36,894 nucleotides of DNA. Source: Elusimicrobiota bacterium. Lineage in GTDB: Bacteria > Elusimicrobiota > Elusimicrobia > Elusimicrobiales > UBA9959. Of this stretch, positions 4,173 through 36,894 are shown piece after piece. The translations under genes were made by a program, and so were the position numbers. The stretch spans positions 1-36,894 of the forward strand of contig DAOWGR010000023.1 of assembly GCA_030637365.1 (NCBI GenBank), written 5' to 3'. How positions within the stretch are numbered: position 1 is the stretch's first letter; each line of letters opens with the position of its first letter. Below the pieces are notes generated by a model, which did not search any database, was not told the DNA's origin, and saw only the letters and a list, made by a program, of their open reading frames with translations.

Positions 4173-4231
4173 ATTGTTTTTATGCCTTCCTTTCCCTTAC
4201 GGGGATTAGAATTTGTATATAGAATATCAGT

Positions 4232-6133: not shown

Positions 6134-6150
6134 AAAGAACTTAACAGATT

Positions 6151-8094: not shown

Positions 8095-8175
8095 GAGTCC
8101 GTTTAAACAGTTTTTATTACCGTGTATGCTTTTTTTCTCCATATAATAACCGGAAGACACATTTGGAGTATTAAT

Positions 8176-22473: not shown

Positions 22474-23121
22474 CTATTTCTGAATTTTAAATATATTTTT
22501 TATGTATTGCCAATGCCAATGGATGTGAAACAGAGATATCATAAACATCGCTATGCCCGCTTCCGTATGCCATAGCATGATATTAAAAGGCAGTTTAATC
22601 CTTATGCCGTAATTTATCATTATAACCAGCAGAATTCCGAGCAAGCCGGATATTAAAAATGTGAGCAATAGGGCAAAATTCCAAAATTTAAAGTGGGTTT
22701 TGGCTTCTATGATTTTTTTCTTATACAGGATAATGCCGATAAGGTACAAAAGAAGCAAAAACGCGCTTATGGGAAAAAGATGATATGGCTTTTTGCCGGA
22801 GGTTTTTTTAATGGCGGCTTTTTTTGTAGTTTTAACGGTTTTTTTGGGGGCAATCGGCGGTTTTATGTTTTGCGATGTTTGAGCCGGGATGTTCTTTTTC
22901 CGCTTGTTGTTTTCTGATATCTGTTTTCTGCTTTCCACTTTGTTAACAATATCTTTTATCTGAGGGTTTGATTGAATATAATCGCATATTCCGTCATTAT
23001 CCTTATCCACGCACATGCCGCATGGCGCGTCGCATTCAGTCAGCCCTTTAGGGCAGGCGCTTTCCCCGAATACCGTTAAAGGCAATGAGCATAATATCAT
23101 GGCGAATGCTATTTTTTTCAT
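22474..23121 (-). CDS. Hypothetical Cys-rich membrane protein (signal peptide, CxxxxxxC..PCGMC..DGICD module, Lys-rich linker, three His-containing TM helices)
   Basis: MKKIAFAMILCSLPLTVFG signal peptide. The C-terminal TM block with WHTEAGIAMFMISLFHIHWHW is reminiscent of DUF4405/cytochrome-b-like membrane domains, but I am not certain of this. Confidence 0.6.
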   Translation of the reverse strand: MKKIAFAMILCSLPLTVFGESACPKGLTECDAPCGMCVDKDNDGICDYIQSNPQIKDIVNKVESRKQISENNKRKKNIPAQTSQNIKPPIAPKKTVKTTKKAAIKKTSGKKPYHLFPISAFLLLLYLIGIILYKKKIIEAKTHFKFWNFALLLTFLISGLLGILLVIMINYGIRIKLPFNIMLWHTEAGIAMFMISLFHIHWHWQYIKNIFKIQK

Positions 23122-23183
23122 ATTGTTTCTTAAAGCCTAAATAGAGTTTACAAATTTTAGATTGATTCGTGAAAATAGTCGGA

Positions 23184-24686
23184 CTAAGAATTAAGGAGTG
23201 TTTTTTTGCGTTCCGTCCAAAGGGTGAAATTGAAAGTGGAGCCTTCGTTTAGCGCGCTTTCCGCCCATAGTCGGCCTTTGTGTCGTTCTATTATGCGTTG
23301 GACCGTACTCAGACCTATGCCGGTTCCGGGAAATTCAGACAGAATGTGAAGGCGTTGAAAGGGTTTGAATATCTTGTTTACATATTTCATGTCAAAGCCG
23401 CAACCATTGTCTTTTACGAAATAAATATTTTGGTGTTCTTTTTTCATCATTCCGAATTCTATCGCGGGTTTTTCGGTTTTTTTCGTGAATTTCCACGCAT
23501 TTTCCAGCAGATTCTCAAGAGATTCCATCAGAAGACCGGGATCTCCGGTTGTTTCAATGCCTTCCGCCACAATAATATTTACATGCCGCGCGGGTTCGCT
23601 TTCTTGCAGGCGTTCAATGATTTTCTTTGCCAGAGCCGTCATATCCACGGTCTTGCAGTCCATTTCCTGGCGTATGATACTGGAGAGTTTGAGCAAATTG
23701 TCTATAATTTCCGCCATATGTTGGCAGTTGTTCTGCACTTTTCCGATATATGCTCTGCCGGTATCGTCCAAGACATTTGAATATTCCTGTTCCAGAAAGG
23801 TGATAAAGCCATCCATGCGTCTTAACGGGCCGCGTAAATCGTGCGACGCGGAATAGGTAAAAGCTTCCAATTCTTTATTCGCCATTTTTAATTCGGCCGT
23901 TCTCTCCGTTACATTGTCTTCCAGGTCATTGCGGGCTTTGATAAGTTCACTTGTTGCCGTGTCGCGTTCACGGCTCCTTTCCCGAAGATTTTTAAGCATG
24001 TAATTAAAGCTTTCGGCCAGTATTCCGATTTCATCGCCGCGGTTTATATCGGTTTTTAAAGAATAGTCTTGATTATGGGCGATACTTCTGGTTAATTCGG
24101 CCAATTGCAGTATGGGCCGCGATATCAGCCTTTGGACGCGCGTGGTCAGGATGAAGACAATTATGGCCACGCAAAATGCCAATATGATGATTAGTTTTAC
24201 GCGGTCCCAAATTTTTTCCGCCAAGAGCGCGGTGGAAACGCACATATGAAGTGTGCCGTAATATTTACCTTTATAAGTCATCGGTTCATAAACAGCAAGG
24301 TGCCCTTTTGTGAAGAGAGTATAAGTTTCTTCCCGCGCAATTGGTGTTTTCAGTTTTTTTCGCTCGAACTTTTTTCCATCGCGAGCGTAGGCGGCAAAAA
24401 TATTTCCGCGAATGTCGTAAATTGCCGCATGCTCTATGTTTTTTATAAGAGAAAGTTTTTCAAGCGCTTGCGAGGCTTCATCTTCGTATTCGAAAACCAG
24501 ATCTCCAATACAGTATTCCGCCGTTATTTTGGCGTTTAGAATGGAATCTTCTATCAATTCTTTTCGGAAATTACGGGTATCAAGCGCCGTTATTACGGCA
24601 AAACCGAGCACTAACGCGAAGAAAGCCACCGCCATTATGAGAGATGTTAGTTTGGCGTTTACCGACAAATTTTCAAGAGATTTCAT
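23184..24686 (-). CDS. Sensor histidine kinase (2 TM + periplasmic loop, HAMP, HisKA, HATPase_c)
   Basis: HAMP region RPILQLAELTRSIA...GDEIGILAESFNYMLKNL, H-box FTYSASHDLRGPLRRM, N/G boxes NLLENAWKF, DNGCGFD and GTGIGLS. The start overlaps the upstream stop (ATGA). Confidence 0.9.
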   Translation of the reverse strand: MKSLENLSVNAKLTSLIMAVAFFALVLGFAVITALDTRNFRKELIEDSILNAKITAEYCIGDLVFEYEDEASQALEKLSLIKNIEHAAIYDIRGNIFAAYARDGKKFERKKLKTPIAREETYTLFTKGHLAVYEPMTYKGKYYGTLHMCVSTALLAEKIWDRVKLIIILAFCVAIIVFILTTRVQRLISRPILQLAELTRSIAHNQDYSLKTDINRGDEIGILAESFNYMLKNLRERSRERDTATSELIKARNDLEDNVTERTAELKMANKELEAFTYSASHDLRGPLRRMDGFITFLEQEYSNVLDDTGRAYIGKVQNNCQHMAEIIDNLLKLSSIIRQEMDCKTVDMTALAKKIIERLQESEPARHVNIIVAEGIETTGDPGLLMESLENLLENAWKFTKKTEKPAIEFGMMKKEHQNIYFVKDNGCGFDMKYVNKIFKPFQRLHILSEFPGTGIGLSTVQRIIERHKGRLWAESALNEGSTFNFTLWTERKKTLLNS

Positions 24687-25327
24687 TTTGTGTCACCGCC
24701 GTACACCATTGTCGCCAAGCGTAAAAGTTTTGAATTGATGACAAGGCCGCTTTTGCGGGCGCCGCCGAGATTTATATTGAAACGGATATGTTTACTTTTT
24801 TTGTAAAGAGCGATATGCGTCCCGCGCCGAGCCAGTTTTTTACCGTCTCCCACGATAAGTATCGGCCTATTGCCGGTTATGGAAAGTATGTCAGCCAGCC
24901 GCTTGTTTTCGTTTTTTGCTATAAAAAGCATATGACAGTGTTCAAGAGTGTCTTCGTTTTTCATTTGGCGCAATATTACACGGCGATTTTTTATTTTCCT
25001 GGTCTTTGCCAGTTTTTTGAGATAAGGACCGATTAAGGTTTTTCCAATCAGAGTTATGATAAAAGGTTCGTTTGGATCTGAAAAAGTTTTTTCGGGCCAG
25101 TCAATAAATTGGGTTATTCTTACCAGAAATTCGGCTTTTACCTGGTATTCAAAAAATTTATGCGACGAGGCGGTTGCCAAATCTCGGTTTGAGCCGGCGA
25201 TTAGCCCGAACAATATAAGAAAAGTCGTTAGGATTATTCGCCCGATTGACGGTTTGTTTGGAATGGTTGTTTTTGCTGAAAGATTTTGAAACAAAATGGA
25301 TTTTAGTCGGCTAAGCAAGTTTGTCAT
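24683..25327 (-). CDS. YfiR-like periplasmic protein (DUF4154)
   Basis: EYQVKAEFLVRITQFIDWP...HCHMLFIAKNE...ILIVGD...IRFNINLGGARKSGLVINSKLLRLA follows the DUF4154 pattern end to end. Confidence 0.8.
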   Translation of the reverse strand: MTNLLSRLKSILFQNLSAKTTIPNKPSIGRIILTTFLILFGLIAGSNRDLATASSHKFFEYQVKAEFLVRITQFIDWPEKTFSDPNEPFIITLIGKTLIGPYLKKLAKTRKIKNRRVILRQMKNEDTLEHCHMLFIAKNENKRLADILSITGNRPILIVGDGKKLARRGTHIALYKKSKHIRFNINLGGARKSGLVINSKLLRLATMVYGGDTK

Positions 25328-25379
25328 AGTCTTTTTTTAATAGTTCCTCATGGTCCGGGATAGAATGAAAATATGAAAT

Positions 25380-27611
25380 TTAAAATTTAAGCGTTAAGCC
25401 TCCGTATATGCTGATCGGGTCCTGAGGAGACGCTCCAAAACCTTCGTCCGGAGCTCTTGTGGGATTGGAGTAACGGGCATTTGTCAGATTTTGTATGTTT
25501 AAAAATATTGAAAGCTCCTTGTCTCCAATCGGTATATCATTGTATTTGGCATAAAAATTCATAATGGCGAAAGGGTCGCTGCTTTGCTTTGTTCCGCTGA
25601 TGAGGTTTCTGTTATAACTGCGCGATTGATATATAAAACGAGGAGAAATGCTCCATCTGCCAAATGTCGCGTCCACTCCCGCTCGGGCGGAGTCTTTCGC
25701 GCTGTAGGAAAGAAATGTGGCCCCTTCCGAATAACCCTCGGAATATGTATAAGCCGCGTAAATCACCATGTCAATTTTGCCGAGGTTTGTGATGGCGTCC
25801 ATGCGCAGTGTTCCGCCGTAAATTCTGCCGATATCGTCAGTGTTTACAAAGGTTTGAATATAAGAGACCGGAACACCCTTGAAAGATGTTATGGTTTTAT
25901 CCCTTTTTGTTCTAATCATGTCATAAACATAAGAGTTATAACCATTGAAGCTTAACCAGAATGTATCGGTGAATTTATAACTTGCTTCCAATTGAAATGA
26001 ACGGATTTTTTCCGGTTTTAAATCCGTATTGGGAAGATAAAAATAAGAGCTTCTAAGGCCCGTAACGGTGTTTGTGTCCGCGTAAAAAGAGCCGTAATGC
26101 TGATAGGTTTTATCGGGAGAAGGAGCAAGGAAGGCTTCTCCGTAAAGCAATTTGAAGTTAGTTTTTTTATGCGGTTTAAATACAAGGCCTGCTCTGGGAT
26201 TGAGGTAGTCTCCGTAACGGCTATTACGGTCATAACGGATTCCGAGTGTGGCTTGGACGGCGGAATACTCTTTAAAATTAAATTGCGCGTAGGCTCCGGT
26301 ATTGCTGTATTCATTAAAATAGAAATCCTGTGAAATTCCCAGATAAGTTCCCGAACTGTCGTATATATCGGAGCCCGGATAGACGAAACCTTGAGAATCC
26401 GCGCTTAAATCTCTATTGTAAGCGCTTGAAAGGTCGGCGGTGCGCGGCAGAACCAGGTGATCTTGATAAGACAGGCCGAAAAGAAAGAGGCTTTCTTCGC
26501 CTATTTTACAGTTTGCTTTTTCTTCAATTACGGAGCTTTTATCCCTAGCGTATTTATACGCGTCATCATAGTTTGAATAAATATTAATAAATTTGGTTTC
26601 GGGATCCAATTCATAGAAATGAGACGATAATGATGTGTTAAATGTCCACTTTTCGTTTTCGGAGCGATAAATATGGTTGCCGGAAAGAGTTTCATAATTT
26701 GTTTTGACAATCGCGTCTTCGGCATATAAAGAGTATTCCGGCTTCATTCCAAGCGAGGAAGAATGAGATTCCGACATTTTTACCCAGCCCAATTCAAAAT
26801 TGTTCATGCTTAGCCGGACATGAGTAAAAAAAGCGTTTTCATCGGCATTAAAGTCGCGGAACGGAACAGTGGTTTCTCCTGTAAAAGTTTTCATTCTTCC
26901 TGTTTGGTATTCTGAATTGTACCATGAAAAATCGCTTGAATGATATTTTGGCATGGAAGGTCCGTCCGAATGATAACTGTCGGCGGTTACGGAAAAAAAC
27001 GCATTTTCCAGAAATCTAATTTTGCCGCCCGCGACAGCGGAATAGTTTTGCGTATTGTAATTTCCATAGGAGCCGGAAAGATTTTGATTTTCCAAGTCTT
27101 CACCGCTTTTAGTGACGATATTTATTACTCCCGTGAAAGCGTCCGCTCCGTATAATGCCGACATCGGTCCCAGCACTATTTCCACTCTTTTGGCGTTTTT
27201 GAGGGAAAATTGTCTTCCCAGAGTGTAAAAATTCCCCGTAACGGGAGTGACTTGCATGCCGTCAATGAAAATTTGAATTCGTTCATTGCCGTTTATGCCT
27301 TGTACTGTCAAAATATTGCCGGTATCCGTTCCGGCCAAGTGCGCTATTTCTATTTGAGGCATATCCTCAAGAAGGTCAAGCAAAGTGGAGTAGCCTCGGG
27401 CTTTGATGGTTTCTTCGGTTATAACATGGGCCAATGCGCCAGACTCCGATGGTTTCTCGTCCGTAAAAGAAGACGCTTTTATCGGAACATTCAGCAGAGC
27501 TTCCAGCGTTAGTCCTTCAAGTTCCGAGGCAAAAGCTGAGGTGCGGCCAAATGGAGCGAGAGTTTCGGTGGCCGCGATTATCGCTATAAGAAAAAATTTT
27601 ATCGGTTTCAT
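25380..27611 (-). CDS. TonB-dependent outer-membrane receptor
   Basis: Signal peptide. Plug domain ITEETIKARGYSTLLDLLEDMPQIEI...VEIVLGPMSALYGADAFTGVINIVTK. A long beta-rich barrel ends in the terminal aromatic residue ...GGLTLKF. Confidence 0.9.
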   Translation of the reverse strand: MKPIKFFLIAIIAATETLAPFGRTSAFASELEGLTLEALLNVPIKASSFTDEKPSESGALAHVITEETIKARGYSTLLDLLEDMPQIEIAHLAGTDTGNILTVQGINGNERIQIFIDGMQVTPVTGNFYTLGRQFSLKNAKRVEIVLGPMSALYGADAFTGVINIVTKSGEDLENQNLSGSYGNYNTQNYSAVAGGKIRFLENAFFSVTADSYHSDGPSMPKYHSSDFSWYNSEYQTGRMKTFTGETTVPFRDFNADENAFFTHVRLSMNNFELGWVKMSESHSSSLGMKPEYSLYAEDAIVKTNYETLSGNHIYRSENEKWTFNTSLSSHFYELDPETKFINIYSNYDDAYKYARDKSSVIEEKANCKIGEESLFLFGLSYQDHLVLPRTADLSSAYNRDLSADSQGFVYPGSDIYDSSGTYLGISQDFYFNEYSNTGAYAQFNFKEYSAVQATLGIRYDRNSRYGDYLNPRAGLVFKPHKKTNFKLLYGEAFLAPSPDKTYQHYGSFYADTNTVTGLRSSYFYLPNTDLKPEKIRSFQLEASYKFTDTFWLSFNGYNSYVYDMIRTKRDKTITSFKGVPVSYIQTFVNTDDIGRIYGGTLRMDAITNLGKIDMVIYAAYTYSEGYSEGATFLSYSAKDSARAGVDATFGRWSISPRFIYQSRSYNRNLISGTKQSSDPFAIMNFYAKYNDIPIGDKELSIFLNIQNLTNARYSNPTRAPDEGFGASPQDPISIYGGLTLKF

Positions 27612-27739
27612 AAAATCTCCTGTTAAAAACAGATGGCGCTATTGCCTGTGTTTTCGTTTACGGATTTCATTCGCTTTTATCCGTCTGTGGTCTCGTCCGC
27701 GTTGTGAAGCCGCGGAAGGACAAATAGACCGGGCGAATT

Positions 27740-28195
27740 TTATTTATACGCGTTTTTAGGCATCATTTTGACAATTAAAAACCAGAAATTTTCCATCGTT
27801 CTCATTACATTTTCAAAATCCTCCATTTTGACCGGCTTGGAGATAAAACAGTTCGCGTGATGATTATAGGTTTTTATGACATCTTCATCGGCTTTGGAAG
27901 AGGTCAGTATTATGACGGGAATAGTTCTTAATTCAGGGTCTTCTTTTATTTCCGTGAGCACTTCATGGCCGTCTTTTTTTGGGAGGTTTAAATCCAGAAG
28001 AATAATGTCCGGCCTGGGAGAATTCATATATTCCCCTTCTTTGCGCAGATATGCCATGGCCTCCACTCCGTCCGCGGCCACACTGATATTATTTTTTACT
28101 TTAGCCTTTTTGAATACCTGCAGGATAAAAAATGTGTCATCATCATTATCCTCCACCAGAAGTATTTCAATAGGTTCATGGTTGATTTTATCCAT
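27740..28195 (-). CDS. Stand-alone CheY-like response-regulator receiver
   Basis: EILLVEDNDDDTFF, DIILLDLNLPKKDG, PVIILTSS and CFISKP. ATG at 28195 is preceded by GGGGG. The ORF-track start at 28222 is an upstream extension. Confidence 0.9.
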   Translation of the reverse strand: MDKINHEPIEILLVEDNDDDTFFILQVFKKAKVKNNISVAADGVEAMAYLRKEGEYMNSPRPDIILLDLNLPKKDGHEVLTEIKEDPELRTIPVIILTSSKADEDVIKTYNHHANCFISKPVKMEDFENVMRTMENFWFLIVKMMPKNAYK

Positions 28196-28302
28196 GGTGC
28201 CCCCAAATTTTAAATTTATCATCCGGCGTTATTTTCAGCGCCAAACGATTGTTGCGTCGCGATTAAAACAATAATTTCCCTCACACATATTTTACTTCAA
28301 AT

Positions 28303-28473
28303 TTAATAAAAAAAACAGTGCCGGCGCGAGCGCGTTAAATTTTTACGATTATTCTCATCAATAAAACCGCCGCATGGCGAATAACATTCAATTATCCCTT
28401 TAGGGCAGTCGATTTCACCGAATACCGTTAAGGGCAATGAGCATAATGCCAGGGCGAATATAATTTTTTTTAC
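28303..28473 (-). pseudogene. Truncated paralogue of the 5' end of the Cys-rich membrane protein gene (22474-23121); start codon apparently lost
   Basis: Minus-strand translation is VKKIIFALALCSLPLTVFGEIDCPKGIIECYSPCGGFIDENN...*, compared with MKKIAFAMILCSLPLTVFGESACPKGLTECDAPCGMCVDKDN in the full gene. GTA occupies the ATG position. Nucleotide similarity also extends about 35 nt upstream. Confidence 0.6.
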
Positions 28474-28525
28474 AAGGTTAACTCCGGATAAAGTTTACAG
28501 ATTACAGGTTAAATTTTGGCGCGTA

Positions 28526-29333: not shown

Positions 29334-29352
29334 ACGGAAGGGGAGGGATTCG
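29334..29352 (-). repeat. 19-nt duplicate of the tRNA-Ser 3' end (att-like scar)
   Basis: ACGGAAGGGGAGGGATTCG at 29334-29352 is identical to 29503-29521, which covers the T-loop/T-stem 3' half, the acceptor 3' strand, the discriminator and one further nt of the tRNA. Confidence 0.8.
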
Positions 29353-29503
29353 CCTACTGCATTCACAGAGTTCACTGCGTAGGCTCCCCTTCGCTCACTG
29401 GCAGCATAGCTTTTTCCTCGCAACGCTCGGCGTTCGCTACGCTTCGAATCCCTACGCAAGTCAAATTGTTGACTTGCTCTTTTCGCAAGTTGGAAATATC
29501 AAA

Positions 29504-29591
29504 CGGAAGGGGAGGGATTCGAACCCTCGAAAGCCATTAAGACTTTACCGGTTTTCAAGACCGGCTCCTTAAACCGCTCGGACACCCTTCC
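29504..29591 (-). tRNA. tRNA-Ser (anticodon UGA), class II with long variable arm
   Basis: Minus strand reads GGAAGGG-TG-TCC-GAGCGGTTTAA-GGA-G-CCGGT-CTTGAAA-ACCGG-TAAAGTCTTAATGGCTTTC-GAGGG-TTCGAAT-CCCTC-CCCTTCC-G. The 7-bp acceptor, 3-bp D stem, 5-bp anticodon stem, 6-bp variable stem, T-arm and G73 all fold. CCA is not encoded. Confidence 0.95.
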
Positions 29592-29636
29592 AGAAGCATA
29601 ATTATACAAAATTTGAAAAATATAGCTTATAATGAG

Positions 29637-29775
29637 AGGAGGCTTTTTTATTTAATGTATAATCATTATATTAAGGGAAATAAACCGCTTATTTGAGTTC
29701 ACGGAGGAGCGTTGTTAAATGCTCCGGAAAACACTCTTGTCGCTTCTACAAAGGCTTTTGAAAATGGAACCGATA
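29637..29775 (+). pseudogene. Degenerate duplicate of the glpQ promoter plus first 35 or so codons
   Basis: Aligns base by base with 30537-30673 (TTAATGTATAATC identical; roughly three quarters identity overall by eye). The ATG position is mutated, there is one extra nt, and a TGA stop follows KGNKPLI. Confidence 0.7.
29658..29663 (+). promoter_or_regulatory. Candidate -10 box (TATAAT) in the duplicated glpQ leader, now upstream of the receiver gene
   Basis: Consensus TATAAT preceded by TG. An identical box lies at 30556-30561. No good -35 box was seen. Confidence 0.3.
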
Positions 29776-29790
29776 TGGAGGAAAAAAATT

Positions 29791-30432
29791 ATGTCTAAAA
29801 AAAACATGAAAATTCTTATTGTGGAGGACAATCCCGACGATCTTTTTCTGCTCATAAAAGAGCTGAAAAAGTCGCGCTTATCCGACATAAAACCGGAAAC
29901 GGCCGATACCGTGAAAGCGGCCCTTGAAATTTTAAAAAAGAAGCGATTTGATTGTATTCTTTCCGACCTTTCCCTTCCCGATACCCATGACGGAGTAGAT
30001 ACTTTTACGCGGATTAACGGGGCCGCCCCGCAAATCCCCATAATATTGCTGACGGCGTTTGACAGCGAAACGCTCGCGCTGAAACTCGTTAAGAAAGGGG
30101 CTCAAGATTACATTGTCAAGGGAAAGTTCACTCCCGAACTGTTGGCGCGTTCGATTTTTTACGCCATAGAACGCAAAGCTTTGAACGACAGGCAGGAGGA
30201 TTTGATCGCGCGGCTCAAGAAGGCGCTTAAAGAAATAAAGACGCTGTCGGGCTTGTTGCCCATATGCGCGAGCTGTAAAAAGATAAGGGACGACAAAGGG
30301 TATTGGCACATGGTGGAGACTTATATATCCTCCCACGCGAATGTTGAATTCACGCATGCCATTTGCCCCGACTGCATGGAAGAGCTTTATCCTGAATTTC
30401 TGGATAAAAAAGATAAAAAACCGAAAAAATAA
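29791..30432 (+). CDS. Response-regulator receiver fused to a C-terminal CxxC...CxxC module
   Basis: ATG at 29791 lies 9 nt after GGAGG. MKILIVEDNPDDL, CILSDLSLPD, IILLTAF and YIVKG. C-terminus LLPICASCKKIRDDKGYWHMVETYISSHANVEFTHAICPDCMEE. The ORF-track start at 29719 lies within the glpQ pseudo-fragment. Confidence 0.9.
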   Translation: MSKKNMKILIVEDNPDDLFLLIKELKKSRLSDIKPETADTVKAALEILKKKRFDCILSDLSLPDTHDGVDTFTRINGAAPQIPIILLTAFDSETLALKLVKKGAQDYIVKGKFTPELLARSIFYAIERKALNDRQEDLIARLKKALKEIKTLSGLLPICASCKKIRDDKGYWHMVETYISSHANVEFTHAICPDCMEELYPEFLDKKDKKPKK

Positions 30433-30555
30433 ATAGCCGATTAAAGAGTTTTTGCCAATCGGCTGATGCTTTAATAGCGAGGCGTTAACCTTCAATTTCC
30501 ATCCCCTTGCGCGTTAAGCGTTGCTTATTTCGGCCTGAGGGGCTTTAAGTTAATG

Positions 30556-30561
30556 TATAAT
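30556..30561 (+). promoter_or_regulatory. Candidate -10 box (TATAAT) 8 nt upstream of the glpQ ATG
   Basis: TATAAT ends at 30561 and the ATG is at 30570, with no Shine-Dalgarno between them. This would imply a leaderless or near-leaderless glpQ mRNA. Confidence 0.3.
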
Positions 30562-30569
30562 CTTTTACT

Positions 30570-31331
30570 ATGGGGAATAAACCTTTAATTTTGGCTCACA
30601 GAGGAGCGCTGCTAAATGCGCCCGAAAATACGCTTAAGGCGTTTATGAGGGCTTTTGAAAATGAAGCCGATGGCATTGAATGCGATATCAGAATTACCAA
30701 AGACGGCGAGTTTATAGCTTTTCATGATGAAACCACCGAACGCGTTGCGGGCGTAAATTGGCAGATAAAGAAAACAAAATACGCTCAATTAAGAAACATT
30801 GAAGTTTTTGGCAAAGAACCCATAGCTCATTTGGACGATATTTTAAAACTTCTTTTAAAATGGCCGGATAAATTATGTTTTTTTGAAGTGTGCTTTGATG
30901 ACTCCGATGATGTTGAACGCCTGACTCAAAAAGTAAAAGAGGCCGGTCTCGCGAAGCGTTCCTATATTTTGACTTTTTCAAACAGAAAACATTTATTAAA
31001 AAGAGCTAAAGAAGCCGCGCCTGAAATGGGCATATCGGTTATGCCGCTATTGCCGACAAAAATTATTCAGACCGCTCGCAAAGCCGGCGCTAATTCCGTT
31101 TGCGCGGGCTGGGTTGATTTGCCGGGAGCGAAACAATTGTTTACAATGTCGGCAAAACTTTATAATTTTAAAAAACAAATCAGAGACGCGAAGAAACTTG
31201 ATATTTTTGTAAGCGGCGGAGTGGCCAATACCCATAAAGAAATTGAATGGTTTTGCGAGCAAGGCATTGAAGGCGTATGGACTGATGATGTCTTGCTGGC
31301 TTTGGAAGTGATACGAGGCTCTGAGAAATAA
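30570..31331 (+). CDS. glpQ: Glycerophosphodiester phosphodiesterase
   Basis: ILAHRGALLNAPENTLKAF, ADGIECDIRITKDGEFIAFHDETTER (the HRG / E-D / HD GDPD motifs). Confidence 0.85.
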   Translation: MGNKPLILAHRGALLNAPENTLKAFMRAFENEADGIECDIRITKDGEFIAFHDETTERVAGVNWQIKKTKYAQLRNIEVFGKEPIAHLDDILKLLLKWPDKLCFFEVCFDDSDDVERLTQKVKEAGLAKRSYILTFSNRKHLLKRAKEAAPEMGISVMPLLPTKIIQTARKAGANSVCAGWVDLPGAKQLFTMSAKLYNFKKQIRDAKKLDIFVSGGVANTHKEIEWFCEQGIEGVWTDDVLLALEVIRGSEK

Positions 31332-31363: not shown

Positions 31364-32056
31364 ATGGTTAAATATTCGGCTTGTATTGCGGTGGCGCTGG
31401 CGATAGTATATGGAATAATACTTTCATATCCGGGAATGTTTTTTAAGTATAGTTATGAGTATAAAAACATGACCGTTTACAGCCATGAAACCCTAAAAGG
31501 CGATATTGACGGTGTTTGGGATGCCGTTCATGAGAAGATGGTTTTATCCGAATTTTTTAATCCCGATTTTAAATTTTGTTTTTATATTGTAAAAGGTTTA
31601 AAGGAATACTCTTTTTTAACCGCCTTTAAAGGAAAAAATTATTCTTATCTCTGTCCGTTAAGCGGCAAGATTTTTTTGGTTTCGGCCGATTTTGAAAAAA
31701 ACGAAGCAAATTGTAAAAATTGCGATGAAAAAAGCGTCAGGGATTTGGATATTATCATGGCGAGCGCGGCAATGAAGAGTATTCTCCGGCAAAATTCCGA
31801 ATTTTTAAAATATATATTCATTAGTGAATGGAAAAAAGAAGGCTATGGGGAGTATATCGCGGGTGAAAGCGGATATTTTGAATTTTCGGAAATATGCGGA
31901 AACGAAACGGATAATCTGTGGCTGGAATTTTATAAGCGCCATCTTGCCATGAAAATGCTGATGATTGAGGATAAATATTCATTTGCCGCCGTTCTTGAAA
32001 AAAATGTCAGTTATGAAGGCATGCTAAAGCGTCTTAAAGAAAGGCATTGCAGATAG
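31364..32056 (+). CDS. Hypothetical membrane-anchored protein (one N-terminal TM), paralogue starts at 36796
   Basis: N-terminal TM ACIAVALAIVYGIILSYPGMFF. ATG is preceded by GGGGGAAG. No family recognised. Confidence 0.6.
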   Translation: MVKYSACIAVALAIVYGIILSYPGMFFKYSYEYKNMTVYSHETLKGDIDGVWDAVHEKMVLSEFFNPDFKFCFYIVKGLKEYSFLTAFKGKNYSYLCPLSGKIFLVSADFEKNEANCKNCDEKSVRDLDIIMASAAMKSILRQNSEFLKYIFISEWKKEGYGEYIAGESGYFEFSEICGNETDNLWLEFYKRHLAMKMLMIEDKYSFAAVLEKNVSYEGMLKRLKERHCR

Positions 32057-32219: not shown

Positions 32220-34343
32220 CTATTTCACTATCTTGCCGGCATAAATCCATTCGCTTTTTTTCGTTTTGCCTATTATAACCCAAACCTCAAGCCAGATATG
32301 ATTGGTTTTTCGCGGAAGAATGTCATCTGAAATGGATGTGCCAAGACTTAATTTTACATTGTCATTATAACTGATAAATGGAGCCCAAGCTTTTTTTAAT
32401 TTGGTTTTATACAGGTGCCCGCCTCTGTCATAGCTTGAGTAAACCTGCATAAATATTCTTTGAACTGATCCTAATGTTGTCCTAAGGTTATGAACAGCTT
32501 TTGGATCTATGTATTTCCATGCTAAGGTTATTTCATAATAATGTTCGCCTTTTTTAAGCGTTGCCCTGACATTTTCAAGAAGTGTGACTCTTTCCCAAAA
32601 GTTACCCTCGTTAAGTAAATCAAATTTTTTAAAATCAATGCCAGGCAGATTGGCGGGGAAGACCTTTCCGCTCAGAGAGGATGTTTCCTCTTTTTCTTTT
32701 TTTGATTTATCTTCATTAATTTCAGTTGTTTGTTTTTCTTCCGCTTCCAATCTTTTTCGCTTATTTTCAGCAATTTTTTCTTGAAATTGTTTGTCCCATC
32801 TTTCTTTTTGTTGTTTGTCAATTTCAATTTGTTCCGCTTTAAAAATTTTCTCTTGCTCTTTCCAGAGGTTCTTTTTACAATCGGTAAAACGATTTTGGGA
32901 GTTTGGCGGAATCGTTATGCCAAGTTTTTTAAATTCATCAAGGCAGGATAAAATGGAATTCCATTCTCCTGTCCATCGTGACAGTTCATCTGAGCGGAAA
33001 GGCTCCAAAGGTATTTGTCCGGCAAACTCAATTCGTTTGAGGATCTCTCTTTCTTTTTCAATTAGATTAAGCAGACGATCTGTTTCAGCCTTATTCGCTT
33101 TATATTTTCTTGTTTTTTCGTTTCTTTCTCTGCCTTTGGCAAGTCTGCGTTCGCAACCATCAAGAGTGGTAAGATCGCTTGTTGACAGGGAAATTTTTTC
33201 TTCTTTAAACGCGGCGAGGCATTTTTTAAGGGCTTCTTTTTCCTCATTTACTTGAGTTTCAGTTAAATTCATTTCAGCTGCCAAAGCTCTGGCATCTTCC
33301 AATTCACCTTCGCAAACGATATAGCTGTTTTTTACTTTGGTTGAAACGGGATAGCCGATTTTATTGAGTTCGTTAATGCATTTCTCAATTCGTTCATTAA
33401 ATTTATCTTTTCCGCTTTTCTTATTTTTTATTGCCAAATCCAAAGCTTTTAAGCAAGCTTCTTCGGAGGAAAAAGTTGATGGCGGATGAAGGCTTGCGTT
33501 TCTAAACTGAGACAAACAGGTTTGAACATTGCCCCTTTCACCGAGATTTTTTTCAGCTTTTGCGGTTGATCGTCTCGCCCATTGTTTTGTTTCGCGCTTC
33601 TTTTGAGCTTTTTCCGCTTTTTCTTTAGCAAGCCATTTTTCATCTCGTTTTCTAATTCTTTCGCGTTCCTCTTCAGCTGTCGGCTGAAAACTTGAAAGCC
33701 ATTTGGCATGTCTTGCTTTTTTTTCTTTTTCAGTTAGTTTTCGAGGCGCGGTTTTTTTATTTTTGGATGAGGTCTTGTCGGATTTTCCGGTTAAAGTAGA
33801 ATCGCATTTTTCAAAAACCGGTGAAAAAGAATGTCTGGAATATCCTTTATTAAGCAAATTATAACAACAGTTTTGAAAAGCTTTGCTTTGCAGGAGGTTT
33901 CCTCCTCGCTTAACTTTAATGGATCTTTGGCATGCCTCGTAAGATTTTTTTGCCGAAGAATTTATTGAGCCGTATTCGCAAAAGAGCCGCCGAAGACATT
34001 GTTCATGAGAGGCGCTTCCGGAAGATTTTTTATTCGCTTTTTTTTTGTTTAGAATTTTATTGCAATTCCACCTTCCCAATGCTATTTTTTTATGAGAATA
34101 ACCTTGTTTCAAAAGTTTTCGATGGCAATTTTGCCGGTCCTGCGGCAGCGGTTTGCGTTTGCGATACGCTCTAAGAGCGGTTAGGCAATTGGCATAATAT
34201 TCATCGCATTGAATATCCCAATATCCATATTCCACTACCAGAGTTTCTAAACATGTTTTATGTTTAGGAGTGAAAGAGAGGCTTATATCGGGCAATAAAA
34301 CGCAAATCAAACCCATTGTCAGAATAGTTAAATTTTTTTTCAT
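32220..34343 (-). CDS. Large secreted protein: repeated Cys-containing modules, Lys/Glu-rich coiled-coil segments, distinct C-terminal 170-aa domain
   Basis: Signal peptide MKKNLTILTMGLICVLLPDISLSF. Recurrent CL..(L/F)...C...C...L.K.GY...C modules. The start codon abuts the upstream stop (TAA-ATG on the minus strand at 34346-34341). No family recognised. Confidence 0.75.
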   Translation of the reverse strand: MKKNLTILTMGLICVLLPDISLSFTPKHKTCLETLVVEYGYWDIQCDEYYANCLTALRAYRKRKPLPQDRQNCHRKLLKQGYSHKKIALGRWNCNKILNKKKANKKSSGSASHEQCLRRLFCEYGSINSSAKKSYEACQRSIKVKRGGNLLQSKAFQNCCYNLLNKGYSRHSFSPVFEKCDSTLTGKSDKTSSKNKKTAPRKLTEKEKKARHAKWLSSFQPTAEEERERIRKRDEKWLAKEKAEKAQKKRETKQWARRSTAKAEKNLGERGNVQTCLSQFRNASLHPPSTFSSEEACLKALDLAIKNKKSGKDKFNERIEKCINELNKIGYPVSTKVKNSYIVCEGELEDARALAAEMNLTETQVNEEKEALKKCLAAFKEEKISLSTSDLTTLDGCERRLAKGRERNEKTRKYKANKAETDRLLNLIEKEREILKRIEFAGQIPLEPFRSDELSRWTGEWNSILSCLDEFKKLGITIPPNSQNRFTDCKKNLWKEQEKIFKAEQIEIDKQQKERWDKQFQEKIAENKRKRLEAEEKQTTEINEDKSKKEKEETSSLSGKVFPANLPGIDFKKFDLLNEGNFWERVTLLENVRATLKKGEHYYEITLAWKYIDPKAVHNLRTTLGSVQRIFMQVYSSYDRGGHLYKTKLKKAWAPFISYNDNVKLSLGTSISDDILPRKTNHIWLEVWVIIGKTKKSEWIYAGKIVK

Positions 34344-36674
34344 TTATTTGCTTTCGTTTAAAATAACATATTGAGTGAAAGTGTCTTGAGCCAGTCTGTT
34401 ATATTTATTGATGGCGGCTTTATCGGCGATATGTTCTTTTTGAGAGGCATAATAAACGGAAAGCAGAGAATATGTCCGGCCGAGATAAAAATGAGCCAGA
34501 GCCAAATCGGGGTTTTTTGCCGCAGCGCCGCTTATGATTTCAGCCGCTTTGAGAAGGCCTTTTTCATTATAGCGTTTAACCATCAGATTCACGATTCCCG
34601 AGTATGACCGTTTATAATATTCCGCCAATTTTTTGCCTTTTTTCAAAGCATAAGAGTCAAAATTCTCTTTGCTCGGCCGTTCTCCTGATAAATCAAAAGT
34701 CTTTAAATCCGATACCGCTCGCGCTTGAAGTGAAAAAGATTCGCCCACGGCGCTAAGAGTCGCCTTGAAACCGAGGTTCATGGCCTTTCTTTGGGAGAGA
34801 TATCCTTGGAGCAGTGAAAGATAAGGATTGTTTGAATCAAAAGTTTTATTGTCTTCAAGTTTATTTGACCATTTATCATAGGTGGAATTTTTAGCCGCGC
34901 TTTTTTTTGTGAGATAAGCAAAAATTTCAGAGAAAGTCCTTTCGCTCATAATTGATTTGGCGAAAGGTTTTAATTCGGAGTTTTCCGGTATTTTATCGTA
35001 AGTGTTTTTAATCCGATCGGACATTTCTCTAAGTTCTTTTGGAAATTTAAGATGGCGCTGTTCGGCCGCCGCCCTTTCAATCAATTGCCCCGCGTATTCT
35101 TTAGCCAGCAGAGTATTTTCATCCGCGCCGGCTTTATTAAGATGATTAAGAGCGTTTTGAGCAAGATCCGGTTTTACGGTTATTAAACTCAAATAAAAAA
35201 TGCCGAGCGCTCTTTCACCGAGTTCGGGTGAAAGTCTCAATACCTCCTTATATTCGGCAAACGCGCTGTTTAAAAGTTCGTTTACGGTTGATAAATCTAT
35301 TTTTTCTTTTTTATTTTTTGGGGAGTATGTCCATTTTGGAAAGCTCAAGCCCGTGCCTATAAAATGTTCGTTTGCTTCAGTTATTTGATTCCGGAGAACA
35401 TTCAGGGCGAGCAGGCGATAAATATTTCCAAGTTTAAGATGATAATGGGGATTTTCTTTATCCGTTTCAACGGCTTTTTCAAAAGTGGAAATAATTTCCT
35501 CTGAAATTGGCAAGATATTGAAATGGCGGCTTGTTTGAATCAATTGCCGATATTCGGCGAACATAAGCGAACGGCTTTTTTTGATGTTTTTTTCAACTAT
35601 GCGGCCGGCTTTCCACGAGGCTTTTCCTTCGGGAATATTTTCAGGCAAAGGAAGCGCGGCAAACTTTAAAGAATCCTCAACCGCTTTTTTAAGGGCGCCG
35701 GCATTTTCCCAATCAAAATCCGCGGGCAATTCCAATTCTTTCGGCTTTTGCCCGGTTGAGGTTACAAAGCGCTGTCTGTCTCTAATAGCGGGAGAAGTTT
35801 TTTTTGCTTCTTCAACGCTTTCCATATATTTAAGGGCTTTAATAAATTGTGGCGGATGGGTGACGCTTTGTATTTTTTCTTGAGCCTTGCGATAAGATGT
35901 CAGAGCTTCATCCAGACGCTTATAAAACATTTCCAAAAGCATGGCGTTTCCAAGCCGATATAAATCGGCCCCGCTTTGAGCGGCGCCAAGTTCAGTGATT
36001 TTTTTGCGGATATTTGAAAGTTTGATATTAATATAAAATTTTTGGGCGAGCGGAGAATTTAAGATTCTATTGAAATTTTCTTTTTTTAGCGTTTGATTAT
36101 TTTGAGATAATTCTGTTTTTTTTGGAGCATCGGCAGTCTTTTCAGCCGGAGAAGACGGAATGAACAGAGCTTTTTGATATTCTTTGAAATTATCTTTGGA
36201 TAAACGGATTATGGGGGGCAAAAATAAGCCGTCATTGGTTGTTATGTCCCTCAATGTTAAAGCCGCCTGCCGATATAATATGGGAGGCAGCATGGTTGTT
36301 TCCACGGTGACGATATTTTCGGCGAATTGGCTGTCTATGCTGTACATGCCGCCGGAGATATATTGTGATATCCTGTCTGAAAGCCCGATTCTCATGTCTG
36401 CGGGTTTGTAAAGTTTTTTGCGGATATCGGAATAAATATTGAGAGCTTGTTTGAATTGTTTTTTATAAAGCTTTTTTTTGGCGCCGCTCTTTTTTATTTT
36501 AAGTCCTTCATTGTAAAACTTATTTGCTTCCGCCAGTTTTTGTTTAAAATCCGCTGTGTCTATAAGTCTTTTCTCAGAGCCTTTTCCTTGAGCTTGGATG
36601 GAATTTGCGGCTGAGAAAGCAAATACGGCAATTAGCGTCAATGAAAACAATTTTTTTAATTTGTAAATATTCAT
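34344..36674 (-). CDS. Large secreted TPR-like/all-helical protein
   Basis: Signal peptide LFSLTLIAVFAFSAANSIQA. Several TPR-like helices (AFAEYKEVLRLSPE, LALAHFYLGRTYSLL, ALTSYRKAQEK). ATG is preceded by a G8 run (GGGGGGGG). No specific family recognised. Confidence 0.75.
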   Translation of the reverse strand: MNIYKLKKLFSLTLIAVFAFSAANSIQAQGKGSEKRLIDTADFKQKLAEANKFYNEGLKIKKSGAKKKLYKKQFKQALNIYSDIRKKLYKPADMRIGLSDRISQYISGGMYSIDSQFAENIVTVETTMLPPILYRQAALTLRDITTNDGLFLPPIIRLSKDNFKEYQKALFIPSSPAEKTADAPKKTELSQNNQTLKKENFNRILNSPLAQKFYINIKLSNIRKKITELGAAQSGADLYRLGNAMLLEMFYKRLDEALTSYRKAQEKIQSVTHPPQFIKALKYMESVEEAKKTSPAIRDRQRFVTSTGQKPKELELPADFDWENAGALKKAVEDSLKFAALPLPENIPEGKASWKAGRIVEKNIKKSRSLMFAEYRQLIQTSRHFNILPISEEIISTFEKAVETDKENPHYHLKLGNIYRLLALNVLRNQITEANEHFIGTGLSFPKWTYSPKNKKEKIDLSTVNELLNSAFAEYKEVLRLSPELGERALGIFYLSLITVKPDLAQNALNHLNKAGADENTLLAKEYAGQLIERAAAEQRHLKFPKELREMSDRIKNTYDKIPENSELKPFAKSIMSERTFSEIFAYLTKKSAAKNSTYDKWSNKLEDNKTFDSNNPYLSLLQGYLSQRKAMNLGFKATLSAVGESFSLQARAVSDLKTFDLSGERPSKENFDSYALKKGKKLAEYYKRSYSGIVNLMVKRYNEKGLLKAAEIISGAAAKNPDLALAHFYLGRTYSLLSVYYASQKEHIADKAAINKYNRLAQDTFTQYVILNESK

Positions 36675-36795: not shown

Positions 36796-36894
36796 TTGAA
36801 AATTTTGGATTGTATTATGATGGCGCCGGCGATAGTATATGGAATAATGCGTTCATATACGGGAATGTTTTTTAAGAATAGTTATGAGTATAAA
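36796..36894 (+). CDS. Paralogue of 31364-32056, 3' end cut by window edge (start TTG 36796 or ATG 36817)
   Basis: ...DCIMMAPAIVYGIMRSYTGMFFKNSYEYK compares with ...ACIAVALAIVYGIILSYPGMFFKYSYEYK. Nucleotide similarity is high over the last 85 or so nt of the window. Confidence 0.6.
   Translation, partial: MKILDCIMMAPAIVYGIMRSYTGMFFKNSYEYK

What the first reader, a model, noticed from the sequence alone, without database searches (positions are those of the whole stretch)
29637..30673. Receiver gene sandwiched between a decayed and an intact copy of the glpQ promoter and 5' coding region (promoter capture)
- 29637-29775 and 30537-30673 are collinear. GGCTTT..TTAATGTATAATC is almost identical, and the match continues through the equivalent of the first 35 glpQ codons up to GGCTTTTGAAAATG.A.CCGAT.
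- In the upstream copy the ATG is mutated, one extra nt shifts the frame, and a TGA follows KGNKPLI.
- Similarity stops about 15 nt before the receiver-gene ATG (29791), which has its own GGAGG.
- The receiver gene therefore appears to be transcribed from a copy of the glpQ promoter (TATAAT at 29658-29663).
- In the intact copy the TATAAT box ends only 8 nt before the glpQ ATG and there is no Shine-Dalgarno, implying a leaderless glpQ mRNA.
- Same architecture and similar duplicate length as at 28370-28505 and 23018-23156.
Basis: seen in the sequence. Interest (0 to 1): 0.6.

Follow-up and report, generated by a model that had tools for sequence, protein, structure and literature searches.

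The report
Dead gene stump feeding a regulator
The "duplicated promoter" in front of the receiver gene is the worn-down stump of an older, once complete copy of the neighbouring phosphodiesterase gene; its promoter has stayed intact and probably now drives the receiver gene, which makes this an ordinary but well-documented natural case of promoter capture.

Summary
The repeat is real: 29637-29775 and 30536-30673 are collinear, about 77% identical, with one indel (blastn E 5e-22).

It is not a short duplication of promoter plus 5' end.
- The upstream copy sits where relatives (L011, L013, L017, L018) have their only glpQ-like (GDPD) gene, directly beside tRNA-Ser(UGA).
- A diverged lineage with the same layout (L016) still carries four collinear pieces of that copy, up to codon 239.
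- A sister strain (L002) carries a different internal deletion.

So this is a decaying whole-gene relic.

Its partner is the g230 stump at 36799-36894, which abuts the efflux-pump gene that follows g230 in relatives. The ancestral unit tRNA | glpQ-g230 | pump is therefore split by about 7 kb (29776 to about 36798). That segment carries the receiver gene, a second glpQ-g230 pair and two unknown genes.

The 20-nt promoter block shows no change in either pseudogene lineage (0/20), against 18/89 and 22/75 changes downstream. This supports continued use, presumably for the receiver gene.

A TATAAT box lies 6-8 nt before the start codon in nine close orthologs (72-86% protein identity) plus the intact copies in the window and L016, which supports a leaderless glpQ mRNA.

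No transcript data exist. How the insertion arose is unresolved. This is a known kind of event.

The parts
29503..29592 (-). tRNA-Ser(UGA), the conserved left flank of the ancestral glpQ locus
   Evidence: ARAGORN and Rfam tRNA at 57.9 bits. The same tRNA lies directly upstream of glpQ in L011, L013, L017 and L018.
29601..29608 (-). TGTATAAT box 8 nt upstream of the tRNA 5' end, the probable tRNA promoter. It lies inside the 25-nt spacer AATTATACAAAATTTGAAAAATATA, which is conserved in relatives.
   Evidence: One of only three TGTATAAT octamers in the window. The spacer is conserved in L011, L013, L015, L016 and L018. Its promoter function is inferred.
29644..29663 (+). Promoter block TTTTTTATTTAATGTATAAT of the dead glpQ copy (copy A), with TATAAT at 29658-29663. 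It is the proposed promoter of the receiver gene.
   Evidence: 0/20 differences from the ortholog consensus here and in the L016 pseudogene, against 18/89 and 22/75 downstream (one-sided Fisher p 0.018 and 0.0025). No terminator-like site lies between it and 29791.
29673..29774 (+). Pseudogene stump of glpQ copy A. Codons 1 to about 31 carry ATG>AAG, a +1 frameshift and a TGA at 29694. They are fused to about 8 nt from codons 237-239.
   Evidence: tblastn: 24/33 identities to glpQ residues 2-34, E 5e-13. Substitutions fall on all codon positions. The stump is collinear with the tRNA plus glpQ region of L011 and L017. L016 keeps four pieces up to codon 239. L002 carries a different deletion.
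29775..29790 (+). Left junction of the inserted segment and the ribosome-binding site of the receiver gene (GGAGG at 29777-29781)
   Evidence: Homology to the RR3 gene region of L011/L018 starts at 29784. The junction sequences of the window, L002 and L016 are compared.
29791..30432 (+). Receiver gene (RR3): a CheY-like receiver domain followed by a C-terminal Cys-rich region (CxxC...CxxC) that matches no Pfam family
   Evidence: PF00072, E 6e-22. Orthologs in L011/L018 (71% nt identity) and L017 (70%) lie on the other side of the tRNA.
30433..30535 (+). Spacer of unknown origin between the receiver gene and live glpQ. The first ~16 nt match the sequence downstream of RR3 in L011. It contains the hairpin AGCCGATT...AATCGGCT and a weak tRNA-Ser-like signal on the + strand.
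   Evidence: There is no tRNA hit with the Rfam model. The spacer is homologous to the L016 spacer.
30550..30561 (+). Core promoter TTAATGTATAAT of live glpQ (copy B). TATAAT ends 8 nt before the ATG. The T-rich upstream half of the ancestral block is not conserved here.
   Evidence: 4/20 differences in the window and 5/20 in L016, all upstream of TTAATG.
30570..31331 (+). Intact GDPD-family (GlpQ/UgpQ-like) phosphodiesterase gene, copy B
   Evidence: PF03009, E 1e-24. 52 homologs were found; the named ones among the closest are all Elusimicrobia.
31364..32056 (+). Intact g230 (230 aa, no family match), copy B. It is the conserved downstream partner of glpQ.
   Evidence: It follows glpQ in the eight relatives whose contigs extend past glpQ. 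No Pfam or NCBIfam hit.
32220..36674 (-). Two large genes of unknown function (707 aa; 776 aa with a weak TPR hit), the right-hand cargo of the inserted segment
   Evidence: ORFs; Pfam. Absent from this locus in L003, L007, L015 and L017.
36799..36894 (+). Pseudogene stump of g230 copy A (codons 2-42, start codon lost). It runs off the end of the window. In L001 it abuts the efflux-pump gene that follows g230 in relatives.
   Evidence: 88% identity to 31370-31465. tblastn E 6e-16. L001 7448-10268 is 84-85% identical to the ACR_tran gene of L003 and L017. Alignment.
28348..28479 (-). A separate stump of the same kind. It holds the upstream region and codons 1-42 of g215 (intact copy at 22474-23121) and lies upstream of the RR1-TonB receptor-DUF4154-histidine kinase operon (23184-28222).
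   Evidence: tblastn E 9e-19; Pfam for the operon.

Best explanation
Shown. In close relatives the locus reads tRNA-Ser(UGA) (minus strand), then about 90 nt, then glpQ-g230, then an AcrB-type pump gene on the minus strand. In the lineage of this window that unit (copy A) is split, between glpQ codon ~239 and the g230 start, by a segment of about 7 kb. The segment carries a receiver gene that in relatives sits on the far side of the tRNA, a second glpQ-g230 pair (copy B) and two unknown genes.

Copy A became redundant and broken. glpQ(A) lost its last ~15 codons, and g230(A) lost its start and its upstream gene. Both are decaying by point mutation and by internal deletions that differ between strains.

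Inferred.
- The stump's promoter still fires and transcribes the receiver gene through a leader of about 120 nt. This would explain why the promoter block has not changed while everything behind it erodes, and why deletions stop short of it.
- Copy B keeps only the core -10 box, 8 nt from its ATG, and is probably made as a leaderless mRNA.
- The insertion was guided by homology. Either it was a local segmental duplication followed by deletions, or DNA from a close relative with a differently arranged locus was integrated. The inserted segment carries the same two genes as the site it landed in.
For: Position:
- Window 29504-29773 is collinear with the tRNA, spacer and glpQ start of L011 (77%) and L017 (85%).
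- L013, the closest glpQ relative (86% amino-acid identity), has tRNA-Ser, 94 nt, then glpQ, with no receiver gene between.

Whole-gene relic:
- L016 has the same derived order. Its pseudogene holds collinear pieces matching glpQ nt 1-85, 221-273, 337-364 and 637-717 in different reading frames. It ends at VWID just before the receiver gene's ribosome-binding site.

Ongoing erosion:
- L002, and matching contigs in runs X1 and X3, join codon ~16 directly to codons 235-239. The window's deletion is different.

The other end of the structure:
- The g230 stump is followed in L001 by the pump gene (84-85% identity) that follows g230 in L003 and L017.
- The two g230 copies are 88% identical and share states not seen in any relative.

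Promoter constraint:
- 0/20 changes in both pseudogene lineages, against 18/89 and 22/75 downstream.
- No terminator-like site lies before the receiver gene.
- The only other TGTATAAT in the window sits 8 nt before the tRNA.

Leaderless glpQ:
- TATAAT lies 6-8 nt before the ATG, with no Shine-Dalgarno sequence, in nine close orthologs plus the intact copies in the window and L016.
- Several orthologs at 45-52% identity have TAnAAT 6 nt before the ATG.

Not an assembly artefact:
- The junctions are present in independent assemblies: L001, L002, L016 and Logan contigs.
Against: - No transcript data exist, so neither start site is shown.
- The promoter-block test rests on 20 sites in two lineages.
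- A second TATAAT at 29628-29633 or an unrecognised promoter could serve the receiver gene. Read-through from the receiver gene into glpQ is not excluded.
- Many genes in the window lack an obvious Shine-Dalgarno sequence, so its absence at glpQ says little on its own.
- The origin is unresolved. The tandem-duplication route predicts a minus-strand tRNA relic in 30433-30535, and none was found. The only signal there is weak and on the other strand.
- In L016 the first 63 nt of the stump are 95% identical to the live copy, against 76% in the window. This calls for gene conversion or a more complex history.
Confidence: 0.65

Rival explanations
1. One reading: a short segment (promoter plus about 35 codons) was copied as such, or a cassette was inserted with a target duplication of about 135 nt. 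The mechanism would produce duplicates of similar length at three places in the window.
For: Three stumps of similar size (31-42 codons) lie within 15 kb. Two of them stand in front of signalling genes on the same strand.
Against: - The L016 stump holds pieces up to codon 239.
- The L002 stump is shorter and differently joined, so length is not fixed.
- The upstream copy, not the downstream one, is in the ancestral position.
- The g230 stump stands in front of no gene on its own strand.
Confidence: 0.07
2. A segment from another Elusimicrobiaceae strain, with the order receiver gene, glpQ, g230 and the two unknown genes, was taken up. It was integrated at the homologous locus by homology-facilitated illegitimate recombination, in one step or two. 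The resident copies became redundant.
For: - The insert carries the same two genes as its target, which argues for guidance by homology.
- Flank genes are 84-86% identical to L003 and L017, but glpQ(B) is 78% and g230(B) 73%, while L003 and L017 share 94-95% there.
- The glpQ stump is no closer to its own live copy (76%) than to other species' genes (77-82%).
- Strains are mosaic around the junction.
Against: - The two g230 copies are each other's closest relatives (88%, shared derived states), so a donor would have to be very close.
- The receiver gene is native to this neighbourhood.
- No donor arrangement was found among 43 loci.
- No competence or mobility genes are seen in the window.
Confidence: 0.3
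3. A purely local route. A tandem duplication of the receiver gene, the tRNA and glpQ codons 1-239 fused glpQ to the receiver gene. The first receiver-gene copy and the second tRNA were then lost. A second event placed the two unknown genes between two g230 copies.
For: - The receiver gene lies 50-500 nt to the left of the tRNA in L011, L017 and L018.
- A single duplication junction at glpQ codon 239 / receiver-gene ribosome-binding site would explain the left half.
- Promoter capture through duplication junctions is documented experimentally (PMC6614815).
Against: - No minus-strand tRNA relic lies between the receiver gene and live glpQ.
- No first receiver-gene copy lies to the left of the tRNA.
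- The route needs at least four events.
Confidence: 0.3
4. A site-specific integrative element targeting tRNA-Ser brought in the receiver gene.
For: An 18-nt copy of the tRNA 3' end lies at 29336-29353. A weak tRNA-like signal is present at 30434-30512.
Against: - No integrase or other recombinase domain was found in the genes scanned.
- The repeats that flank the receiver gene are glpQ sequence, not tRNA sequence.
- The 18-nt repeat lies on the other side of the tRNA and belongs to a separate 140-nt element. That element also occurs about 65 nt from tRNA-Ser(CGA) in L017 and about 1 kb from it in L003.
Confidence: 0.03

Closest known systems
Promoter capture at a duplication or deletion junction. 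Examples are the rnk-citT fusion in the E. coli long-term evolution experiment (as cited in PMC3575422 and PMC6614815) and the activation of promoterless transferred genes (PMC6614815, PMC11111574).
   Same: A rearrangement junction places a gene behind the promoter of an unrelated upstream gene, and a truncated copy of that upstream gene remains between promoter and captured gene.
   Different: - This is a natural and old case, shared by lineages 19% apart in DNA.
- The truncated gene has since eroded to a stump.
- The junction is one end of a 7-kb insert that also carries a replacement copy of the broken genes.
- Transcription from the captured promoter is inferred, not measured.
Putative mobile promoters, also called promoter reuse (Nijveen, Matus-Garcia and van Passel; PMC3575422)
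   Same: Two similar promoter copies stand in front of non-homologous genes.
   Different: There are only two copies, they are adjacent, and they are by-products of a gene duplication or insertion. There is no sign of a promoter moving on its own.
Integrated prophages and elements that carry a replacement end for the gene they interrupt, such as phage 21 and e14 in icd of E. coli (from my own knowledge, not checked here)
   Same: The insert supplies a working copy of the interrupted gene, and the displaced original fragment is left as a diverged direct repeat.
   Different: No integrase or att site is present. Here the whole gene pair is replaced, and the cargo consists of ordinary cellular genes.
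Leaderless bacterial mRNAs, common in Actinobacteria and Deinococcus (from my own knowledge)
   Same: A -10 box lies 6-8 nt from the start codon and there is no Shine-Dalgarno sequence.
   Different: This has not been described for Elusimicrobia as far as I know, and it is not tested here.

Membership tests
Promoter capture by rearrangement | A novel junction puts the gene downstream of another gene's promoter on the same strand | tested here: met
   The glpQ(A) promoter and stump are followed by the receiver gene's ribosome-binding site. The junction is shared by the window, L002 and L016. In relatives the receiver gene lies elsewhere.
Promoter capture by rearrangement | The captured gene is transcribed from that promoter | not testable with these tools
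   No RNA runs hold this sequence. Indirect support: 0/20 changes in the promoter block of two pseudogene lineages and no terminator-like site in between.
Pseudogene relic of a GDPD (glpQ-like) gene | Collinear homology to the gene, with a lost start, frameshifts, stops and deletions | tested here: met
   Window: residues 2-34, E 5e-13, with ATG>AAG, +1 frameshift and TGA. L016: four pieces up to codon 239. Substitutions fall on all codon positions.
Leaderless mRNA | -10 box about 6-8 nt upstream of the start codon with no Shine-Dalgarno sequence, conserved among orthologs | tested here: met
   Nine close orthologs plus the intact copies in the window and L016. Several distant orthologs show the same.
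Leaderless mRNA | The transcription start coincides with the start codon | not testable with these tools
   No transcript data.
tRNA-targeting integrative element | A recombinase gene, and direct repeats of the tRNA 3' end bounding the insert | tested here: not met
   No recombinase domain in the genes scanned. The flanking repeats are glpQ and g230 sequence. The 18-nt tRNA repeat lies outside the insert.
Putative mobile promoter | Promoter copies dispersed in front of unrelated genes, independent of the original gene | tested here: not met
   Only two glpQ-type copies exist. The upstream one is attached to remnants of its own gene.

The most novel reading that the evidence does not exclude
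The three stump-insert-intact structures within 15 kb (g215, glpQ, g230) could be products of one recurrent, homology-guided way of taking up or relocating DNA in these Elusimicrobiaceae. An example would be homology-facilitated illegitimate recombination with close relatives. Such a process would routinely leave the target gene's promoter in front of the incoming genes, and so would wire new signalling genes to housekeeping promoters.
Probability: 0.12. Interest if true: 0.55.

Novelty: new member of a known kind. Interest (0 to 1): 0.3.

Why it matters
The case shows, in an uncultivated cold-seep bacterium, how a gene can end up behind a foreign promoter, and how selection then keeps the promoter while the dead gene behind it is whittled away. 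Different strains record successive stages of that erosion.

It also offers sequence-based support for a leaderless mRNA in a phylum whose promoters are uncharacterised as far as I know.

It carries a practical warning. Short repeats of gene starts can be the last remains of whole-gene duplications, so their length should not be read as the signature of a mechanism.

It does not point to a new kind of system.

Tried and rejected
- Chance similarity: rejected (E 5e-22).
- Assembly artefact: rejected. The junctions recur in independent assemblies and in a second lineage.
- First genome-contig scan with the single protein: found nothing. The profile scans found only more distant loci with no further example of the derived layout.
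- Minus-strand tRNA relic in the spacer between the receiver gene and glpQ: not found.
- Plus-strand tRNA-like signal in that spacer: it reached 1 of 2000 shuffles and 2 of 980 window segments. It drops to p of about 0.04 without the first 22 nt. It is absent from L016 and is not seen by the Rfam tRNA model. I left it unexplained.
- Rfam: nothing but the tRNA.
- The sigma-70 scan does not report the glpQ promoters because they lack a -35 match.
- TGnTATAAT is not the right motif, because the TG abuts the hexamer directly.
- The leader RNA fold is unremarkable (z -1.5).
- L003 has a cyclase gene inserted between the tRNA and glpQ. I searched it for a glpQ remnant and found none.
- Further pieces of g215 in its stump: none. 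For g230 there is only a marginal match to residues 195-204 (E 0.13).
- RNA-seq runs: none available.
Full report
**1. What is in the sequence**

The window is from an uncultivated member of the Elusimicrobia. The closest named homologs of its proteins are Elusimicrobia or Elusimicrobiaceae MAGs, and the sequence occurs in cold-seep metagenomes.

Around the finding lie:
- tRNA-Ser(UGA), 29503-29592, minus strand;
- a receiver-domain gene, 29791-30432 (PF00072);
- a GDPD-family gene, 30570-31331 (PF03009). It has no closer assignment, so "glpQ" is used here only as a label;
- a conserved 230-aa gene with no family match (g230), 31364-32056.

The reported repeat is real. 29637-29775 and 30536-30673 align with one indel at about 77% identity (blastn E 5.5e-22). 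Differences between the copies are spread over all codon positions (6/8/11). Intact orthologs differ mainly at third positions.

**2. Which copy is the original**

I fetched loci from relatives through their glpQ and receiver proteins.
- In L011/L018, L013 and L017, tRNA-Ser(UGA) is followed after about 85-95 nt by the only glpQ gene.
- L015's contig is cut inside a tRNA-like sequence in the same position, with the conserved spacer following it.
- Window 29504-29773 (tRNA, spacer and the decayed copy) is collinear with that arrangement: 77% to L011 and 85% to L017.
- The live copy matches relatives only from 30544, which is 26 nt before its ATG.

The decayed copy is therefore the one in the ancestral place.

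The receiver gene has orthologs in L011/L018 (71% nt identity) and L017 (70%). There they lie on the other side of the tRNA. In L011/L018 it is the last gene of an operon encoding a response regulator, a TonB-dependent receptor, DUF4154, a histidine kinase and two further response regulators.

**3. It was a whole gene**

L016 comes from the same study. Its receiver protein is 83% identical and its DNA is 81% identical over 29772-31150. It has the same derived order: tRNA, pseudogene, receiver gene, glpQ.

Its pseudogene contains four collinear pieces in different frames, matching glpQ nt 1-85, 221-273, 337-364 and 637-717. It ends at VWID (codon 239) just before the receiver gene's ribosome-binding site.

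L002 is a sister strain, 99% identical in the receiver gene and glpQ. It joins codon ~16 directly to GTGTTTGAACCGAT, which corresponds to codons 235-239. The same variant is present as contigs in two runs that also hold the window's form.

The window's own stump ends in the same GAACCGAT, with the same extra A. It is therefore codons 1 to about 31 fused to codons 237-239. The two deletions are independent. The length of about 135 nt is what is left in this strain, not the size of a duplicated unit.

**4. The other end of the structure**

The repeat pair 31370-31465 / 36799-36894 (88%) is the 5' end of g230 and a second stump of it. The stump covers codons 2-42 and has lost its start codon.

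In L001, which extends past the window, this stump is followed on the minus strand by a gene 84-85% identical to the AcrB-type pump gene. In L003 and L017 that pump gene lies immediately after g230.

The ancestral unit tRNA | glpQ-g230 | pump therefore survives as two stumps, each next to its ancestral flank. Between them lies 29776 to about 36798: the receiver gene, a 137-nt spacer, intact glpQ and g230, and two genes of unknown function on the minus strand.

The break points in the old unit are glpQ codon ~239 and the g230 start. These lie only about 40 nt apart in relatives, where the two genes overlap.

The two g230 copies share states found in no relative, so they are each other's closest kin.

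**5. Promoters**

A 20-nt block, TTTTTTATTTAATGTATAAT, precedes glpQ in close orthologs. It is intact or differs at one position in L007, L011, L013, L014, L015 and L017, and its T-rich half is less conserved in L003. TATAAT lies 6-8 nt before the ATG and there is no Shine-Dalgarno-like run.

Several orthologs at 45-52% identity have TAnAAT 6 nt before the ATG. This supports a leaderless mRNA. However, many genes in the window lack an obvious Shine-Dalgarno sequence, and no RNA data exist.

In both pseudogene lineages the block shows 0/20 changes, against 18/89 (window) and 22/75 (L016) changes downstream (one-sided Fisher p 0.018 and 0.0025). The variant strain also shows no change there. No terminator-like site lies between the block and the receiver gene.

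The only other TGTATAAT in 36.9 kb is on the minus strand, 8 nt before the tRNA. That fits a -10 element.

I infer that the dead gene's promoter is maintained because it transcribes the receiver gene.

The live copy keeps only TTAATGTATAAT. The T-rich half differs in both the window and L016 (4/20 and 5/20 changes).

**6. How it arose**

This is unresolved. The insert contains the very genes it interrupts, which argues for a homology-guided or local process and against random insertion. I considered two routes.

(a) Local duplication. A tandem duplication of the receiver gene, the tRNA and glpQ codons 1-239 would create the left junction in one step. It predicts a minus-strand tRNA relic in 30433-30535, which I did not find. 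It also needs further events for the right half.

(b) Uptake of a differently arranged locus from a close relative. The flank genes are 84-86% identical to L003/L017, while glpQ(B) and g230(B) are 78% and 73%. The glpQ stump is no closer to its own live copy than to other species' genes. Against this, the two g230 copies are sisters, and no donor arrangement was found.

In L016 the first 63 nt of the stump are 95% identical to the live copy, which points to gene conversion between the copies.

There is no recombinase gene and there are no att-like repeats around the insert.

**7. The third pair**

22996-23127 / 28348-28479 is a g215 stump (upstream region plus codons 1-42) in front of the RR1-TonB receptor-DUF4154-kinase operon, on the same strand. 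The architecture matches that of glpQ. No further gene pieces were detected, and no relative was informative.

**8. Comparison with what is known, and verdict**

The closest known phenomenon is promoter capture at rearrangement junctions (PMC6614815, PMC3575422). This case meets the structural criterion. The transcriptional criterion is untested.

It is not a mobile promoter and not a tRNA-targeted island.

It is a clear natural example with several stages of erosion preserved, but it is a known kind of event. Interest 0.3.

Noticed in passing
window 1766-1851 and 13710-13792: An ~85-nt palindromic element (terminal inverted repeats CCCACCACCCGCTT / AAGCGGGTGGTGGG and two inner hairpins; DNA fold -38.6 kcal/mol, z -10) sits in frame inside two unrelated genes: a ComB-like phosphatase gene and an SBP_bac_5 gene. 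In the binding-protein gene it accounts for 28 extra residues, and it stays in frame in the phosphatase gene. The paralogous binding-protein gene at 15760 lacks it. It resembles the Rickettsia palindromic elements that insert into coding sequence (from my own knowledge). No copy was found in the 43 fetched loci.
   Followed up: partly
window 29336-29474: A ~140-nt element lies just beyond the 3' end of tRNA-Ser(UGA) and begins with an 18-nt copy of the tRNA 3' end (CGGAAGGGGAGGGATTCG). An 85% identical copy lies about 65 nt from tRNA-Ser(CGA) in L017 (17979-18111), and a further copy lies about 1 kb from it in L003 (15631-15813). It may be a small element that targets tRNA-Ser genes, or an att remnant.
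   Followed up: partly
window 30434-30512: A weak collinear resemblance to the sense strand of tRNA-Ser(UGA), running from the D loop to the 3' end, lies in the spacer after the receiver gene. It reached 1 of 2000 shuffles and 2 of 980 window segments. It is not significant in L016 and is not found by the Rfam tRNA model. Its orientation is opposite to the native tRNA. Unexplained.
   Followed up: yes
window 29791-30432 (residues ~150-213): The receiver protein ends in a Cys-rich region (LLPICASCKKIRDDKGYWHMVETYISSHANVEFTHAICPDCMEEL) with no Pfam or NCBIfam match. The full-length protein search returned 1631 proteins at E<=1e-30, some with PAS domains, but I did not check whether they share this tail. 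It may be an unannotated output domain.
   Followed up: no
window 4217-10059: Three tandem paralogs (72-90% identity across repeat blocks) of a 633-647-aa PLD-domain protein. The first (ATG at 4232) has TAGAAT 6 nt before its start codon and no Shine-Dalgarno sequence, which makes it another candidate leaderless gene.
   Followed up: no
L003 5528-6906; L016 39-264: The interval between tRNA-Ser and glpQ varies among relatives. L003 has a guanylate-cyclase-domain gene and an Hsp20-like fragment there, with no glpQ duplication. L003, L015 and L016 also carry a second, truncated tRNA-like sequence with a UCA anticodon loop, which ARAGORN does not call. Many assemblies break within 50-300 nt upstream of glpQ.
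   Followed up: partly
window 29600-29800 versus L002 and runs X1, X3: Sister strains are about 99% identical in the receiver gene and glpQ but 8-15% different in the stump and the junction. In run X3 the first 266 nt of the receiver gene differ by 5%. This suggests recombination break points around the junction.
   Followed up: partly
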